Shown here: piece by piece, positions 1-5,773 of the stretch
Layout of the letters: the number at the start of each line of letters is the position of its first letter
Numbering within the stretch: the first letter of the stretch is position 1
IMG/VR virus record: IMGVR_UViG_2563366807_000007
Coordinates: 1 to 23,490 of that record
Direction: 5' to 3' (one strand)
Origin: a virus
Lineage: Duplodnaviria > Heunggongvirae > Uroviricota > Caudoviricetes
DNA length: 23,490 bases
Notes under the pieces: model-generated
What the model saw: only the letters and a program-made list of their open reading frames with translations
Told to the model about the DNA's origin: nothing
Database searches by the model: none
Translations under genes and position numbers: made by a program

Positions 1-130
1 CAGGGTTTCCCCGTCTCAGTGGGCGGCAATAGGCGTGCTGGGGAGTCTGCTGTTTGGGCTGCTGACATATCTGACTAACCTGTATTTCAAAATCAAAGAG
101 GACCGGCGTAAGGCGGCGCGGGGAGAGTAA
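1..130 (+). CDS. S: Class II holin, S21-type pinholin, C-terminal portion only (5' end lies outside the window)
   Basis: Frame starting at nt 2 translates to [42 protein letters not shown] with stop TAA at 128-130. This is a hydrophobic TM segment followed by a charged tail and closely matches the C-terminus of phage 21 S21 pinholin as I recall it. A SAR endolysin lies downstream, consistent with a pinholin/SAR pair. Confidence 0.75.
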
Positions 131-131
131 A

Positions 132-746
132 GTGATGAATAAAAAATATGAACTGGTTGTTAAGGGGATAAATAATTACGGGGATAAGGTTACTGTTACT
201 GTGAAGTCGGAAGGTGACGGGCAAGCGTCGCTGTTGTTGCCAGATGTGGCGATTAGTCTTGACCGTACTGAAGGTGCCACGCTGGAGTTTTACGAAGCTG
301 AGGCGAAAAAGCAGGCGAAGCAGTTTTTCATGGATGTTGCTGCCGGGTTATGTGAATGGAACGAACCGTTGCCGGAAAAGCGCCCCGTAATTTTAGAGGC
401 GCAGGATGTGTTGATAACCTACAAAGGAAAGCTACCGGGAAGAATTACTTGTTCTCTGAAGATGCCGCCGTCAACACTGCGGTCAGAAAAAGATGATGTT
501 GAATCACGTATTGAAAAACTGGAGAGCTACGTCGTTGAGCTGAATAAGAAATGGTCGATATTGGTGCCTTCTGGCGATGAAAAGCAGTTTGCTGCGTTTG
601 ACGATTATTGTCGGAAAGTGATGAGCAGAAATCTCGCAGAGTGTTTCAGTATTCATAATGATAATTTCAGTGACCCGGAATGGGAGTGTAACCGGCCATC
701 CTTTGTTGTATCCGGTGATGCGTATTACCGTGAAGGAGATCGGTGA
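132..746 (+). CDS. Hypothetical protein between holin and endolysin; 3' end interrupted by the IS21-family insertion (last few codons and the stop are IS-derived)
   Basis: 204-codon ORF from the track with a GTG/ATG start at 132/135 overlapping the holin stop. No recognisable motif. The left end of the IS (about 731) falls inside the last codons, so the native C-terminus is missing. Confidence 0.5.
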   Translation: MMNKKYELVVKGINNYGDKVTVTVKSEGDGQASLLLPDVAISLDRTEGATLEFYEAEAKKQAKQFFMDVAAGLCEWNEPLPEKRPVILEAQDVLITYKGKLPGRITCSLKMPPSTLRSEKDDVESRIEKLESYVVELNKKWSILVPSGDEKQFAAFDDYCRKVMSRNLAECFSIHNDNFSDPEWECNRPSFVVSGDAYYREGDR

Positions 747-803
747 GTAACATCGATGGAGATCGGTTCGTGTCACTTTCACAGAACCGTTTTTAAATTA
801 CCT

Positions 804-1553
804 TCACTGATCTCCTTCGGTCAACGGAGATTGTATTTTCCGCATTGATTCTCCTTTAAGTTCGATCTTGATACTGCCATGAACCAGTCGATCTAGGATG
901 GCATCCGCATGTGTGGAGTCTCCGATCATTTTGTACCAGTTTTCCACCGGCAACTGGCTCACTACGATGATTGAGCCTCGTTGGTACATCAGATCCACTA
1001 TTTCCAGCAGGTCGCTACGCTGTTCTGATGAGAGAGGTTCCAGCCCCCAGTCATCCAGAAGCAGCAGATCGCTATTATTCAGCCTGGTCAAAAGTTTGCT
1101 GTATCTTCCATCAGCATGCCCCTGATAGCACTGTTCCATCAGCGCTTTAAGGCGATAATAGTAGACCTTGTATCCCTGTCGGCAGGCATTATGACCAAGT
1201 GCACATGCCAGGAACGTTTTACCGCTGCCGGTGGCCCCGGTCAGTAAAATATTTTGTTTCAGGGTTAACCAGTTTCCCTGACTGAGTGAACGGATGAGGG
1301 CCCTGTCCAGCCCTCTATTGTTACGATAATCCAGCTTTGATAACTCAGCATTAAGTCTGAACCGTGCATGTTTGATCAGACGCTCTGCCTTCCTGTTTTC
1401 ACGGCAGGTTAGTTCTTCTGCTGTCAGTAATGACAGGCGTTCTTCGAAGCCCAGCTCCTGGTATGTGCCCGGTTGAGCAAGTTGCTTTTTAAGCGCATCA
1501 CGGAAGCCGGTGAGTTTAAGTGCGGTCAGTTGTTCGTAAAGATGATTCATCAT
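804..1553 (-). CDS. istB: IS21-family helper ATPase IstB
   Basis: 249 aa. Walker A LLTGATGSGKTF and Walker B LLLLDDWG, with the overall IstB/DnaC-like AAA+ layout. Lies immediately downstream of istA on the same strand. Confidence 0.9.
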   Translation of the reverse strand: MMNHLYEQLTALKLTGFRDALKKQLAQPGTYQELGFEERLSLLTAEELTCRENRKAERLIKHARFRLNAELSKLDYRNNRGLDRALIRSLSQGNWLTLKQNILLTGATGSGKTFLACALGHNACRQGYKVYYYRLKALMEQCYQGHADGRYSKLLTRLNNSDLLLLDDWGLEPLSSEQRSDLLEIVDLMYQRGSIIVVSQLPVENWYKMIGDSTHADAILDRLVHGSIKIELKGESMRKIQSPLTEGDQ

Positions 1554-1564
1554 TGGATCCCGTA

Positions 1565-3106
1565 TCAGTGGTAATACTCACTGCCGCGTACGTTTTCGTG
1601 TTCCATCGTGGATAACAGATCTGGTTTTGGATCCTGAACAGGTTGTTTATCCAGACCTTTTTCCAGGATCGATTTAATACCTGACAGACGCCATACCTTT
1701 GTTTTCAGAGCTCTTGCACATGCTGCATTAAGTCTGGCTTTACTGTATTTTTTATGAAGGTTCAGGAGTCCAAGGCAGAAGCGATAGCTTTGTTCCGGAT
1801 GTGGACGAGAGTTCAGTATATGAAGCACATAACTATGAGTTTCACTGCCTATGTGCCCCGCCCATTCCAGAAGACGCTCTGGCGTCCAGGTGGCATGCTG
1901 TCGATGAGCTTCAGGCATGTGCTCGTTGCGGGTACTGTAGCCATAAGTACGCTTGCGCGGGTGCACAGCAACCTCCTGCCCCTGATTGAAGAGTCTTACC
2001 AGTTCTCCGGAGATCCATGCTTCCAGTTGCTGGCCTAACAGCGAACATGGAACCGAGTAGTAATGTTTGTCGATTTCCACGTGGTAATCGGCATGAACTC
2101 TGACTTTCTTCACCAGGGTGTAACTGTAACTGGCTTCAGGAAGAGGCTTCAGTGCGGGTTTATCAAGCTGGATGAAGAGTTCTGCACGTGAATAACCCAA
2201 CTTCTGCATTATTTTGTTATTCAGTCTTTCCAGCAACTCCCGAATGCGCTGATTAAGCGATGCAAGGCTGTAGAAGATCTCATGCCTGATTCGGGCCATG
2301 ATCCAGCGTTCAACAACCTGAACGCCAACTTCAGCTTTGGCTTTATCTTTCGGTTTACGTGGCCGCGCAGGCAAAACTGCGACATTATAATGCTCAAGCA
2401 TCTGCTGGTAGGTAGGGTTAACGTCAGGATCATACTTACATGCCCTGGATGTGGCGCTTTTCAGATTGTCCGGAACAACAAGTTCAGGAACGCCACCCAA
2501 CCACTGGAAGCAGCGAACATGACTCATCACCCAGTCTTCAAGCTGCTGAGACCAGGTGGCCTCTGCCCATGTGTAACTTGATGCCCCGAGAACAGCTACG
2601 ATGACCTGAGCAGTTCTTATTTCTCCGGTCTCAGGGTCGGTAACGCCAACGGTAGGTCCACAGTAATCAACGAAAAGTTTTTCGCCAGCTTTATGTACCT
2701 GACGCATTGATGGTGAAGTGGTTTTGAGCCATTCACGGTACATCCGGCAGTAATGGTTATAGCTGTAAAAACCGCCTGGATTACGCTCACAGTATTCTTC
2801 CCAGAGTAGCTGCAGCGTCACGCATTTATTACGCAGTTCCCGGTGTACTGTAGCCCAGTCAGGCAGAGAGTGCTTCTTCATCTTAACCTGGGTCTGAAGG
2901 AACGCATGTTTTAGTTTTGTATCATCCCATCCTGTAGGTAAGGGCCACTGCTTTATGCCAAGTTGAGCCGCCCGATTAGCATATCTGGATACAACGGAAG
3001 GGGAGATTGCAAGACTACGACCAATTTGTCGATGGCTGAGTCCAACACCGTATTTAAGCCTAAGAATTTCTTTAAGTTTTCTCATAGAAATTGGAACTGT
3101 TGGCAT
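1565..3106 (-). CDS. istA: IS21-family transposase IstA
   Basis: 513 aa. N-terminal helix-turn-helix (LSHRQIGRSLAISPSVVSRYANRA) followed by a large integrase/DDE-type catalytic region. Gene order istA then istB is typical of the IS21 family. Confidence 0.9.
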   Translation of the reverse strand: MPTVPISMRKLKEILRLKYGVGLSHRQIGRSLAISPSVVSRYANRAAQLGIKQWPLPTGWDDTKLKHAFLQTQVKMKKHSLPDWATVHRELRNKCVTLQLLWEEYCERNPGGFYSYNHYCRMYREWLKTTSPSMRQVHKAGEKLFVDYCGPTVGVTDPETGEIRTAQVIVAVLGASSYTWAEATWSQQLEDWVMSHVRCFQWLGGVPELVVPDNLKSATSRACKYDPDVNPTYQQMLEHYNVAVLPARPRKPKDKAKAEVGVQVVERWIMARIRHEIFYSLASLNQRIRELLERLNNKIMQKLGYSRAELFIQLDKPALKPLPEASYSYTLVKKVRVHADYHVEIDKHYYSVPCSLLGQQLEAWISGELVRLFNQGQEVAVHPRKRTYGYSTRNEHMPEAHRQHATWTPERLLEWAGHIGSETHSYVLHILNSRPHPEQSYRFCLGLLNLHKKYSKARLNAACARALKTKVWRLSGIKSILEKGLDKQPVQDPKPDLLSTMEHENVRGSEYYH

Positions 3107-3290
3107 AGGTATCCTTTACCGGAATGGCAAAAGATACAGATCAACACACCTGTGAAGTTCCAATAACATTGATGGAGATCACTGAATAACAAAATGAGTC
3201 AAAAGTGATCTCCATCGATGTTATTCAGCGATCTGTTCAAATGTTATTACCCGATCTCGATGGAAGTTATTGAGTGATCTCCTTTCATGA

Positions 3291-3611
3291 AAATACGCAG
3301 GTGATGCTGGGAAAATAACCATCTCAGAAAATGGGAAAGTAACACCTCCATCGCACCAGCACAGTGAGGAGCTCATTGAATTTGCCATTGATTACCTGAA
3401 GAACAATAAAAAGCAGGGGCTGATGAAGCGCGTTGGCCGTTGCATGGGATATCTTCAGGTAGCCGCTGAGATTGAAGCGCTGGCCAGTGGTGCTGATAAG
3501 GATGCAATTGTGCGGGAGGCTCTTCTTCGTGATTTTAATACTCCACCCTTTAAAAAAGGGCCGGCTTACTGGCTTCATCCGGGGCTGACTTATCTTAAAG
3601 TGCGTATTTAG
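3291..3611 (+). pseudogene. 3' gene fragment to the right of the IS, possibly the C-terminal remainder of the gene at 132..746
   Basis: The frame is open from the IS right flank (KYAGDAGKITISENGK...) to the stop TAG at 3609-3611, with no start codon or RBS at its 5' end. It is in the same frame register (mod 3) as the ORF at 132..746. Alternatively a 62-aa ORF could start at ATG 3423. Confidence 0.35.
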
Positions 3612-3647
3612 TGGGCCAGGGACAGCGGCTGAATATTTAATATATCC

Positions 3648-4181
3648 ATGAACACCAAAATCAAATACGGCCTGTCGGCTGCCGTTCTGGCGCTGATTGC
3701 CGCTGGTGCGCCTGCGCCTGACATTCTCGACCAGTTTCTGGATGAAAAGGAAGGCAACCACACCACGGCATACCGTGATGGTGCAGGTATCTGGACCATC
3801 TGCCGTGGTGCCATCATGGTGGATGGCAAACCTGTCGTTCCGGGCATGAAGTTGTCGAAGGAAAAATGCGACCAGGTTAACGCCATTGAGCGTGATAAAG
3901 CGCTGGCGTGGGTGGAGAAAAACATCAGAGTGCCGCTGACCGAACCCCAGAAAGCGGGGATCGCGTCATTCTGTCCGTACAACATTGGTCCCGGTAAGTG
4001 TTTCCCGTCGACGTTTTACAGACGAATTAATGCTGGTGATCGAAAAGGTGCCTGCGAAGCGATTCGCTGGTGGATTAAGGACGGTGGCAGAGACTGCCGT
4101 ATTCGTTCAAACAACTGTTACGGTCAGGTATCCCGTCGTGACCAGGAGAGCGCGCTGGCGTGCTGGGGTATCGACAGATAA
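3648..4181 (+). CDS. R: SAR endolysin (phage lysozyme, T4/P21 R-type, glycoside hydrolase family 24)
   Basis: 177 aa. N-terminal Gly/Ala-rich weakly hydrophobic signal-anchor-release segment (GLSAAVLALIAAGAPAP). Catalytic spacing E35-8aa-D44-5aa-T50 (EGNHTTAYRDGAGIWT), as in phage 21 R and E. coli prophage RrrD/RrrQ lysozymes. Confidence 0.9.
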   Translation: MNTKIKYGLSAAVLALIAAGAPAPDILDQFLDEKEGNHTTAYRDGAGIWTICRGAIMVDGKPVVPGMKLSKEKCDQVNAIERDKALAWVEKNIRVPLTEPQKAGIASFCPYNIGPGKCFPSTFYRRINAGDRKGACEAIRWWIKDGGRDCRIRSNNCYGQVSRRDQESALACWGIDR

Positions 4182-4337
4182 GCAGAATATTTTGCTGAAA
4201 AATGAGGAATGGCCACGCGGGCGGATAACACGAAATCCTGCGAACTGGCGAAACGTAAGTGAATAAAAGTAAAAACCCCGTTTGTTGGCACCAAGCGAGG
4301 TTTTGTGTTTCTGACCTTGAGTAAGGCAAGGGAGAAC

Positions 4338-4520
4338 ATGGCGAAGTGTAAACGAATTCTGTTGAGGTTGACTATGAAAAATGGCCTTGAACTGAAAGCG
4401 CCTGTAACTGATGACATCAGCAGAGCACTGGCTTTTGCCATTAAGTGGGTGGCGGTCGGTGTTGCTGTGTCCCCGATGCTGTATGGGCTGGCAAAACTGG
4501 TCATTGCGTTGAAATCGTGA
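4338..4520 (+). CDS. Small predicted membrane protein (60 aa), unknown function
   Basis: ATG at 4338 preceded by AGGGAG. Basic N-terminus ([14 protein letters not shown]) and hydrophobic C-terminal helix ([28 protein letters not shown]). Its stop codon overlaps the RBS of the next ORF. Confidence 0.4.
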
Positions 4521-4534
4521 AGGGAGGATTAAGC

Positions 4535-4666
4535 ATGTCAGACAAACTCATAACGCTGGCGAAGATCCTCTGTGTAATTGTCGGCATTTCATTTTCACTA
4601 ATGCTGGTTGCTCTTTTTCTTTCCATGGCCTGGATGATGTTGTCTTCGTCGGGGTTGCTGGGGTGA
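4535..4666 (+). CDS. Small hydrophobic protein (43 aa), unknown function
   Basis: Strong RBS AAGGGAGGA 7 nt upstream of ATG 4535. Sequence [43 protein letters not shown] is almost entirely transmembrane. Its stop TGA (4664-4666) overlaps the possible GTG start of Rz. Confidence 0.4.
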
Positions 4667-5136: not shown

Positions 5137-5446
5137 GTTTTGTTGATGCGCCGTATCGTCGCTATATTCCCTCATTAACAGAGACCGCAGCCCGACAGGG
5201 AGACTCCTCTGCGCGAGTGTGCGGGGATAATTAAAAACGATGCACACCGGGTTTTTACCGCGTTAATGATTCGCGGGTTTATCCCGGTGCGATGGTGGAA
5301 GAAACAGGAAGCTGTATTACAGAAAGTGCTACTACTGTATCCCGATGCGATGTATGTAATGTGAGTCAGATAATGGCACAGGATGTGGTGATGTGGCAGT
5401 CTGGAACACAGGATATATTGTCAGAATAAGACCCGTAGGAATAAAA

Positions 5447-5773
5447 ATGAAAAGACGCCTTTTACTACTTTTTCTGTTATCTGTCCTGGCAGTGGGATGC
5501 TCGCAGCAAAAAGCTGATGAGCCCCGGCAATTAGTGACGGTGTATCCACGATATCCGGAATATGCTGCAGCAAATTATATCAAGGGGCTGGTTGAGGTTA
5601 AGTTCGATATTGGTGCTGATGGGACTGTGACACGGATCGTTTTTCTCCGCTCAGAGCCTCATAATTTGTTTCGTGATGAAGTGGTGAAGGCCATGGCGAA
5701 ATGGCGATTTGAAAAGAATCGCCCCTGTCAGGGAGTGAAGAGACAATTTATCTTTACGCCGTCACGTCCTTGA
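5447..5773 (+). CDS. Lipoprotein with a TonB C-terminal-like domain (moron)
   Basis: 108 aa. Signal peptide MKRRLLLLFLLSVLAVGC with lipobox AVGC and Ser at +2. The remainder (YPEYAAANYIKGLVEVKFDIGADGTVTRIVFLRSEPHNLFRDEVVKAMAKWRFEKNRP) aligns motif by motif with the E. coli TonB C-terminal domain ([11 protein letters not shown]..DGRV....[24 protein letters not shown]). Confidence 0.7.
   Translation: MKRRLLLLFLLSVLAVGCSQQKADEPRQLVTVYPRYPEYAAANYIKGLVEVKFDIGADGTVTRIVFLRSEPHNLFRDEVVKAMAKWRFEKNRPCQGVKRQFIFTPSRP

What the first reader, a model, noticed from the sequence alone, without database searches (positions are those of the whole stretch)
132..3611. Extra gene between the pinholin and the SAR endolysin, split by the IS element
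In phage 21-type lysis cassettes the pinholin and SAR endolysin genes are adjacent. Here a gene of unknown function begins 2 nt after the holin stop (132..746, about 200 native codons). To the right of the IS an open frame without its own start continues for 107 codons (3291..3611), in the same frame register, ending 36 nt before the endolysin. This looks like one gene of roughly 300 codons, with no recognisable motifs, inserted into the lysis cassette and later disrupted. A cargo gene in this position would be expressed late with the lysis genes.
Basis: partly seen in the sequence, partly recalled or inferred. Interest (0 to 1): 0.55.

Follow-up and report, generated by a model that had tools for sequence, protein, structure and literature searches.

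The report
IS-split YdfR-family prophage gene
The "extra" gene between the holin and endolysin is a common E. coli prophage gene of the YdfR family (function still unknown) that an ISEc12 insertion sequence has cut in two, so it is an ordinary, already catalogued feature.

Summary
An ORF starts just after the pinholin stop (ATG 135; GTG 132 is an alternative). It is interrupted at 718/719 by a complete 2,581-bp ISEc12 (IS21 family, 719..3299, minus strand) flanked by a 5-bp target duplication, GGTGA. It resumes at 3305 and stops at 3611, 36 nt before the SAR endolysin.

Removing the IS and one duplication copy gives a 296-aa protein. Its uninterrupted form (1 aa different) sits between the class II holin and the lysozyme in E. 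coli 7/2.

The gene does have recognisable features, and it is not unusual. Residues 1-100 match Pfam DUF1327 (YdfR family), and the whole protein matches phrog_1085 end to end. E. coli K-12 Qin has the same essQ-ydfR-rrrQ order. Of 89 loci held (three fetched for other reasons), 81 show the family between an S21-like holin and a lysozyme.

The protein is soluble and mosaic: DUF1327 N domain, disordered linker, coiled-coil helices, and a conserved C domain absent from Pfam with no fold match. The C domain is under purifying selection (median dN/dS 0.20).

Function is unknown. The only experimental lead is that K-12 YdfR binds the RNase E catalytic domain and co-purifies RNA. Here the IS removes the C domain. 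Already known; low interest.

The parts
1..130 (+). 3' part (last 42 codons plus stop) of the class II, S21-like pinholin gene. The window starts directly after a scaffold gap, so the 5' half is simply not in the window.
   Evidence: 100% identical to the end of the 71-aa 'class II holin family protein' of E. coli 7/2. The product is called PF04971 Phage_holin_2_1 in L093. A run of N precedes window base 1 in the source scaffolds.
135..718 (+). 5' piece of the YdfR-family gene: codons 1-194 plus 2 nt of codon 195. GTG 132 is an alternative start. It contains the DUF1327 N domain (aa 1-100 = 135..434), a disordered linker, predicted coiled-coil helices (aa 122-175 = 498..659) and the first strand of the C domain.
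   Evidence: ORF list. Pfam DUF1327 at 137.9 bits against a cut-off of 25. PGAP start at the ATG in L001. AF2 secondary structure.
714..718 (.). Left copy of the 5-bp target-site duplication, GGTGA.
   Evidence: and the overlap of the empty-site matches in NZ_CP030768.1 (H4, H21).
719..3299 (-). Complete ISEc12 (IS21 family), 2,581 bp, with TG...CA ends and imperfect terminal inverted repeats (719-734 / 3284-3299). Bases 719-746 also supply the frame-continuing tail (codon 196 plus YYREGDR and the stop) of the truncated ORF.
   Evidence: 100% identity over the full length to annotated ISEc12 copies. The left end is fixed by alignment with three other copies. Inverted repeats I1, I2 and I20.
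804..1553 (-). istB, the IS21 helper ATPase (249 aa).
   Evidence: Pfam IstB_IS21 at E = 2e-67. Annotated ISEc12 IstB in relatives.
1565..3106 (-). istA, the IS21 DDE transposase (513 aa).
   Evidence: Pfam rve plus Mu-transpos_C_2. Annotated as ISEc12 family transposase.
3300..3304 (.). Right copy of the target-site duplication, GGTGA.
3305..3611 (+). 3' piece of the YdfR-family gene: the last base of codon 195, codons 196-296 and the stop at 3609-3611. This is most of the conserved C-terminal domain (aa 185-296). It has no start of its own; the internal ATG at 3423 would give only a 62-aa fragment.
   Evidence: In-frame join. phrog_26186 and phrog_36381 cover it. C domain pLDDT is 84-95. dN/dS median 0.20.
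3648..4181 (+). SAR-type endolysin (177 aa), the gene downstream of the disrupted gene.
   Evidence: Pfam Phage_lysozyme at E = 2e-24. Annotated lysozyme / rrrQ in relatives. The Gly/Ala-rich N-terminal hydrophobic stretch MNTKIKYGLSAAVLALIAAGAPAP is read from the sequence.

Best explanation
What it is (shown): a YdfR-family prophage gene, the full-length 296-aa type (phrog_1085). It lies in the late lysis operon of a lambdoid E. coli prophage, between an S21-type pinholin gene and a SAR endolysin gene. A recent transposition of ISEc12 (IS21 family) split it, leaving a 5-bp target duplication.

The intact protein is soluble, with no transmembrane segment or signal peptide, and it is mosaic:
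- an N-terminal DUF1327 beta-sheet-plus-helix domain;
- a roughly 45-residue disordered linker;
- two long helices (coiled-coil-like);
- a 112-residue C-terminal domain conserved even in relatives at 25-32% identity. Pfam has no model for it, and no known fold matched.

The IS cuts inside the first beta-hairpin of the C domain. The window therefore encodes a 203-aa product (N domain plus helices plus 7 IS-coded residues) and an unexpressed C-domain remnant.

How it most likely works (inferred, about 0.3). It is a non-essential accessory protein made late, with its start placed for translational coupling to the holin gene. It acts in the cytoplasm rather than on the envelope. The N domain docks on the catalytic half of host RNase E and/or on RNA, as reported for K-12 YdfR residues 1-72, which are 47% identical to residues 1-74 here. 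The helices oligomerise. The C domain is a second binding module, not an enzyme: its invariant residues are L, G, R, Q, P, K, W, P and Y, with no acid, His, Ser or Cys among them. The protein would then tune RNA turnover late in infection. Loss of the C domain here probably abolishes that function. It need not abolish lysis, because Q-modified transcription can read through the antisense IS (inference).
For: Identity and structure:
- In-frame join to 296 aa.
- Intact ORF with 1 aa difference between holin and lysozyme in E. coli 7/2.
- DUF1327 at E = 1e-40 and phrog_1085 over 296/296 at E = 8e-190.
- 296-aa 'YdfR family protein' clusters.
- K-12 Qin order essQ-ydfR-rrrQ.
- 81 of 89 loci held have the family between an S21-like holin and a lysozyme.

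IS:
- 100% identity to ISEc12, IstA/IstB domains, ends and duplication.
- The identical disrupted allele occurs in two NCBI assemblies.

A real, selected gene:
- C-domain dN/dS median 0.20, range 0.13-0.41, over 143 pairs with dS above 0.15.
- Distant relatives keep the N + helix + C architecture.

Soluble: maximum Kyte-Doolittle 19-residue window 0.75.

Domain model: AF2 pLDDT 84-95 for the C domain and 70-90 for the N domain.

Mechanistic lead: YdfR 1-72 interacts with the RNase E N-terminal half in a bacterial two-hybrid assay. Strep-YdfR co-purifies Rne(1-598) and DNase-resistant nucleic acid (PMC13232886). YdfR is 47% identical to residues 1-74 here.
Against: - The functional part rests on one study of a 103-aa relative. 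In that study, ydfR overexpression changed few transcripts and gave no growth phenotype.
- Nothing is known about the C domain. There were no significant PDB or BFVD fold matches and no PDB sequence-profile hits.
- The tight synteny with S and R could equally point to a role in lysis.
- dN/dS among very close full-length copies is uninformative, with fewer than 30 differences per pair.
- Expression, read-through of the IS and oligomerisation were not tested.
Confidence: 0.85

Rival explanations
1. The protein is a lysis regulator. As a cytoplasmic partner of the S21-type pinholin or the SAR endolysin, it sets the time of hole formation or endolysin release, which would explain why it is kept between S and R.
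For: Conserved position between an S21-like holin and a lysozyme in 81 of 89 loci held and in K-12 Qin. The start lies 4 nt after the holin stop, suggesting coupled expression. The RNase E paper cites a genome-wide screen in which ydfR was linked to envelope integrity. I could not find ydfR in that screen's main text.
Against: There is no transmembrane segment or signal peptide, unlike known antiholins and releasins. From established knowledge, phage 21 and 933W lyse with S and R adjacent. The family is highly mosaic and often truncated: 103 aa in K-12, with the modules as separate genes in reverse order in other prophages. A distant relative lies upstream of a different holin rather than between S and R. 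ydfR overexpression gave no growth defect.
Confidence: 0.15
2. The gene is a lysogen-benefit or anti-phage moron (superinfection exclusion or defence) that merely hitch-hikes in the S-R interval.
For: GC content is lower (46-47%) than in the flanking lysis genes (54-56%). The family is mosaic and narrowly distributed, almost only in Escherichia and Shigella prophages. Other cargo genes (TonB_C lipoprotein, small ORFs) lie in the same cassette.
Against: No PADLOC match: best E = 0.018 on a coiled-coil stretch. No promoter-like site of its own in the interval, so expression in the lysogen is not expected. Almost no ydfR reads were seen in uninduced K-12.
Confidence: 0.1
3. The two pieces are separate genes, or chance open frames, that only appear to join.
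For: In other prophages the C module is a stand-alone 213-aa gene and DUF1327 a separate 75-aa gene. PGAP annotates only codons 1-112 in strain 7/2, as a pseudogene.
Against: A continuous 297-codon ORF exists in the empty-site genome. The full-length cluster P0001 has 962 members. phrog_1085 is matched end to end. The target duplication and complete IS show a simple insertion.
Confidence: 0.02

Closest known systems
YdfR of the E. coli K-12 Qin cryptic prophage (b1555, P76160; Pfam DUF1327 / PF07041)
   Same: Same family by Pfam: 47% identity over residues 1-74. Same position between the class II holin (essQ) and the lysozyme (rrrQ).
   Different: K-12 YdfR is 103 aa, with the N domain plus a short helix only. 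The protein here is 296 aa, with a linker, a coiled coil and a conserved C-terminal domain that K-12 lacks.
phrog_1085 / NCBI 'YdfR family protein' of 296 aa in E. coli prophages and Stx-converting phages (for example Stx2a phage Stx2_95, LC567838)
   Same: End-to-end match over 296/296 profile positions. 97% identity to cluster P0001. 77% identity over the full length in phage Stx2_95.
   Different: Only that the copy in the window is interrupted by ISEc12. Function is unknown for the whole family.
ISEc12 (IS21 family)
   Same: 100% identity over 2,581 bp. IstA DDE transposase plus IstB ATPase. TG..CA ends with multiple terminal repeats. 5-bp target duplication.
   Different: Nothing notable. 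This insertion site is absent from 5,426 complete E. coli genomes but present in two draft assemblies.
Phage 21 lysis cassette (S21 pinholin, R21 SAR endolysin, Rz/Rz1)
   Same: Class II S21-like holin, a lysozyme with a Gly/Ala-rich N-terminal SAR-like segment, and Rz with embedded Rz1.
   Different: In phage 21 itself S and R are adjacent (established knowledge). Here, as in many E. coli prophages, a YdfR-family gene lies between S and R, and two small ORFs lie between R and Rz.
RapZ-type RNase E adaptor proteins (functional analogy only)
   Same: YdfR, like RapZ, contacts only the catalytic N-terminal half of RNase E and co-purifies RNA (PMC13232886).
   Different: No sequence or fold relation was found. 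No target RNA is known. The analogy is a hypothesis.

Membership tests
YdfR family / DUF1327 (PF07041) | Match to the Pfam model above its gathering score | tested here: met
   137.9 bits against a cut-off of 25, E = 1.3e-40, residues 1-100 on profile positions 1-88 of 93.
YdfR family / DUF1327 (PF07041) | Position in a lambdoid prophage between the class II holin and the lysozyme, as for ydfR in Qin | tested here: met
   Window order, K-12 order, and 81 of 89 loci held.
phrog_1085 (full-length 296-aa type) | End-to-end alignment of the joined product to the family profile | tested here: met
   Residues 1-296 on profile 1-296 of 296, E = 7.6e-190. Uninterrupted ORF in L001.
IS21 family, ISEc12 | Two consecutive genes, istA (DDE transposase) and istB (ATPase) | tested here: met
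   rve plus Mu-transpos_C_2 in the 513-aa product, and IstB_IS21 at E = 2e-67 in the 249-aa product.
IS21 family, ISEc12 | Terminal inverted repeats with TG...CA ends and a short (4-8 bp) target duplication | tested here: met
   Arms 719-734 / 3284-3299. Ends fixed by alignment with three other copies. GGTGA on both sides.
IS21 family, ISEc12 | Near-identity to named ISEc12 copies | tested here: met
   100% identity over 2,581 bp, with features annotated 'IS21-like element ISEc12 family'.
Pinholin / SAR-endolysin cassette (phage 21 type) | Class II holin of the S21 family (PF04971) | tested here: met
   The window holds only the last 42 codons. They are identical to the 71-aa class II holin of L001 and are called PF04971 in L093.
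Pinholin / SAR-endolysin cassette (phage 21 type) | Endolysin with an N-terminal signal-arrest-release segment that leaves the membrane on depolarisation | not testable with these tools
   The Phage_lysozyme domain and a Gly/Ala-rich weakly hydrophobic N terminus are seen in the sequence. Release behaviour needs experiment.
Antiholins / membrane-bound lysis regulators | Transmembrane segment or membrane tether allowing contact with the holin or SAR endolysin | tested here: not met
   Maximum 19-residue Kyte-Doolittle mean is 0.75 and GRAVY is -0.42. AF2 shows no hydrophobic helix.
Known anti-phage defence proteins (PADLOC-DB) | Significant match to a defence-system profile | tested here: not met
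   Only PbeC at E = 0.018 on residues 119-182, the coiled-coil region.
RNase E-binding proteins (functional class, after YdfR) | Physical interaction of the N domain with Rne 1-597 | not testable with these tools
   Shown for K-12 YdfR only. Here there is only 47% identity over the interacting region.

The most novel reading that the evidence does not exclude
The full-length YdfR-family protein could be a previously unrecognised late-phase host-takeover adaptor. Its DUF1327 domain would dock on the catalytic half of host RNase E. The conserved C-terminal domain, which Pfam does not cover and which matched no known fold, would recruit a specific RNA or protein partner. RNA decay would thereby be coupled to the timing of pinholin/SAR-endolysin lysis in E. 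coli lambdoid and Stx phages.
Probability: 0.15. Interest if true: 0.5.

Novelty: already known. Interest (0 to 1): 0.15.

Why it matters
For this window it matters little: a catalogued prophage gene has been knocked out by a common IS.

[quoted passage not shown] It sits between the pinholin and the SAR endolysin, is under purifying selection, and carries a C-terminal domain with no Pfam model and no fold match. One recent study links its N domain to RNase E.

A natural C-domain knock-out like this one, with isogenic intact alleles in other strains, could serve as a ready-made comparison for testing whether the gene affects lysis timing, RNA turnover or Stx-phage yield.

Tried and rejected
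- **Sequence searches for function.** PDB profile searches with two alignments returned only coiled-coil noise. NCBIfam and PADLOC gave nothing significant. Pfam on distant relatives and on the stand-alone C module gave no family.
- **Non-coding features.** Rfam and tRNA scans of the whole window found nothing.
- **Distribution.** A GTDB species-representative scan found only three loci, all Escherichia or Shigella, so no wider taxonomic context could be obtained.
- **Selection.** dN/dS on near-identical full-length copies was uninformative. I replaced it with C-domain comparisons across divergent alleles.
- **Source of the allele.** The left IS junction was not found in any of 5,426 complete E. 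coli genomes. It turned up only by exact-protein look-up.
- **IS boundary.** I considered an 8-bp target duplication. Alignment of other ISEc12 ends showed the TGC belongs to the IS, so I rejected it.
- **Literature.** The envelope screen cited for ydfR does not mention ydfR in its main text. That claim is therefore second-hand.
Full report
**1. The observation**

The ORF list and the raw sequence show the following:
- the tail of a holin gene ends at TAA 128-130;
- an ORF starts at GTG 132 / ATG 135 and stops at 746;
- two minus-strand genes of 249 aa (804..1553) and 513 aa (1565..3106) follow;
- an open frame without a start runs 3291..3611, ending 36 nt before a 177-aa lysozyme gene (3648..4181).

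Pfam identifies the two minus-strand products as IstB_IS21 and as an rve/Mu-transposase-C DDE transposase. The downstream genes are Phage_lysozyme, Rz and Rz1.

**2. The IS and the exact join**

- The segment 719..3299 is 100% identical over its full length to copies annotated 'IS21-like element ISEc12'.
- In genomes without the insertion, window 1..721 and window 3300..4200 map to overlapping positions of the same record. NZ_CP030768.1 matches at 3953297-3954017 and at 3954010-3954910, an 8-nt overlap.
- Alignment of the left end with three unrelated ISEc12 insertions shows that identity begins exactly at 719, TGCGTATTACC.
- The element is therefore 2,581 bp with TG...CA ends, and its inverted-repeat arms are 719-734 / 3284-3299.
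- The target duplication is the 5-bp GGTGA (714-718 and 3300-3304). The further TGC is a coincidence between the IS end and the native sequence.
- Joining ..718 to 3305.. gives 894 nt from the GTG, in frame, and a 296-aa product from the ATG.

**3. One gene, with an intact counterpart**

E. coli 7/2 (L001) has a continuous 297-codon ORF with one amino-acid difference. It lies between a 71-aa class II holin and the lysozyme. PGAP labels only its first 112 codons there, as a 'YdfR family' pseudogene. That is an annotation artefact of a mosaic family.

The exact IS-truncated 203-aa product is encoded in two NCBI draft assemblies, GCA_000407665.1 and GCA_000350625.1. Both are identical to the window over 4,746 nt. 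In both, window base 1 follows a run of N. The missing 5' half of the holin is therefore a scaffold gap, not biology. None of 5,426 complete E. coli genomes has this junction.

**4. What the gene is**

- Residues 1-100 match Pfam DUF1327 (YdfR family) at 137.9 bits.
- The whole protein matches phrog_1085 over 296/296 positions, E = 8e-190, 'unknown function'.
- NCBIfam and PADLOC give nothing significant.
- The 5.8-billion-protein search finds 203 relatives. Every source-given name among the 120 listed is E. coli or Shigella, and many are named 'YdfR family protein'.
- An exhaustive profile search with the C module finds only 40 clusters at 50% identity among 1.84 billion representatives.
- E. 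coli K-12 Qin carries essQ-ydfR-rrrQ in the same order. K-12 YdfR (103 aa) is 47% identical to residues 1-74.
Three of the 89 were fetched only for the IS-end comparison.

So the 'extra gene' is the usual state of many E. coli lambdoid and Stx prophages, even though phage 21 itself has S and R adjacent (established knowledge).

**5. Anatomy of the protein**

The family is mosaic. It includes N-domain-only forms and forms covering residues 1-176. There are also stand-alone C-module genes of 213 aa, followed by a separate 75-aa DUF1327 gene, in NanS-p-type prophages.

Distant relatives at 25-32% identity keep the N domain, helices and C domain together. Their invariant C-domain residues are L226, G239, R240, Q246, P276/277, K278, W284, P287 and Y291.

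AlphaFold2 with those relatives in the alignment gives:
- N domain: three strands plus a helix, pLDDT 70-90;
- residues 73-120: disordered;
- two long helices, 122-175: pLDDT about 52-69;
- C domain 185-296: three short strands plus four helices, pLDDT 84-95.

The protein has no transmembrane segment. Its pI is 5.95, and its GC content is 46-47% against 54-56% for the neighbouring lysis genes.

The C domain is under purifying selection. Median dN/dS is 0.20, range 0.13-0.41, over 143 pairs with dS above 0.15. Close full-length pairs were uninformative.

No fold or profile relation to anything solved or annotated was found.

**6. Consequence of the insertion**

The IS cuts between the first two strands of the C domain, at G194-D195-A196 | G197. 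The left ORF keeps the N domain and the helices and adds YYREGDR. The right piece has no start codon of its own apart from an internal ATG at 3423, which would give a 62-aa fragment. PHROGs even has a family, phrog_26186, for such fragments.

The right piece differs from the intact allele by one residue, so the insertion is recent.

The IS is antisense to the late operon. Whether R, Rz and the morphogenesis genes downstream are still expressed depends on read-through by Q-modified RNA polymerase. I infer that they are, but did not test it.

**7. Mechanism**

The only experimental information on the family is a 2026 study (PMC13232886):
- YdfR residues 1-72 were recovered in a two-hybrid screen with RNase G as bait, and the fragment also interacted with RNase E constructs;
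- full-length YdfR interacts with Rne 1-597;
- Strep-YdfR co-purifies Rne 1-598 and DNase-resistant nucleic acid;
- overexpression changes few transcripts and does not impair growth;
- ydfR is essentially silent in uninduced K-12.

On this basis, I rate three readings:
- **Late cytoplasmic accessory protein (about 0.3).** The protein is soluble, its start sits next to the holin stop, and the C domain has no catalytic-type invariant residues. Its N domain would engage RNase E and/or RNA, with the C domain as a second binding module.
- **Lysis-timing regulator (about 0.15).** The synteny favours this. Against it are the lack of any membrane segment, the frequent truncation and shuffling of the family, and a distant relative that lies upstream of a different holin.
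- **Defence or exclusion moron (about 0.1).**

**8. Verdict**

The gene is a catalogued YdfR-family / phrog_1085 member in its usual place, and the IS is a common one. Novelty: already known. Interest is low. The residual open question is the function of the family, especially of its uncharacterised C domain.

Noticed in passing
window 1 (and L093 3077-3866): The window begins immediately after a run of N in the source scaffolds (GCA_000407665.1 KE136575.1 and GCA_000350625.1 KB732214.1, identical to the window over 4,746 nt). The pinholin gene looks 5'-truncated only because of an assembly gap.
   Followed up: yes
window 4182-4662: A second extra segment in the lysis cassette: 480 nt between the endolysin stop and the Rz start. 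It holds two small ORFs of unknown function, 4338..4520 (60 aa, phrog_1115) and 4535..4666 (43 aa, phrog_4906, hydrophobic). Both are annotated as hypothetical proteins in E. coli 7/2.
   Followed up: partly
window 5393-5773: A 126-aa ORF (GTG start at 5393) whose lipoprotein-type signal sequence (MKRRLLLLFLLSVLAVGC) begins at an internal Met, residue 19, with a TonB_C domain just downstream of Rz/Rz1. PHROGs labels its family (phrog_1267) 'Rz-like spanin', which looks like a doubtful transfer of annotation. It is probably a cargo gene.
   Followed up: partly
L001 3135-3470 versus 3132-4025: PGAP annotates the intact 297-codon ORF of E. coli 7/2 as a pseudogene ('YdfR family protein, incomplete, missing C-terminus') covering only codons 1-112. 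The mosaic nature of the family misleads automatic annotation.
   Followed up: yes
L002-L005 3001-3897: In NanS-p-type (Stx-like) prophages the same modules occur as two genes in the opposite order: holin, then a 213-aa C-module protein, then a 75-aa DUF1327 protein, then lysozyme. This shows domain shuffling within the S-R interval.
   Followed up: partly
L010 2885-6114: A distant relative (44% identity to P0127) appears frameshifted into 118-aa and 158-aa ORFs. It lies next to a hicAB-like toxin-antitoxin pair and upstream of a different 101-aa holin plus a SAR endolysin, not between them.
   Followed up: no
window 660-721 versus L090-L092: BLAST matches of other ISEc12 insertion sites extended 11-28 nt beyond the IS end into unrelated flanks, with partial similarity (for example GGTG, TGTT). 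This may be chance or a weak target preference of ISEc12.
   Followed up: partly
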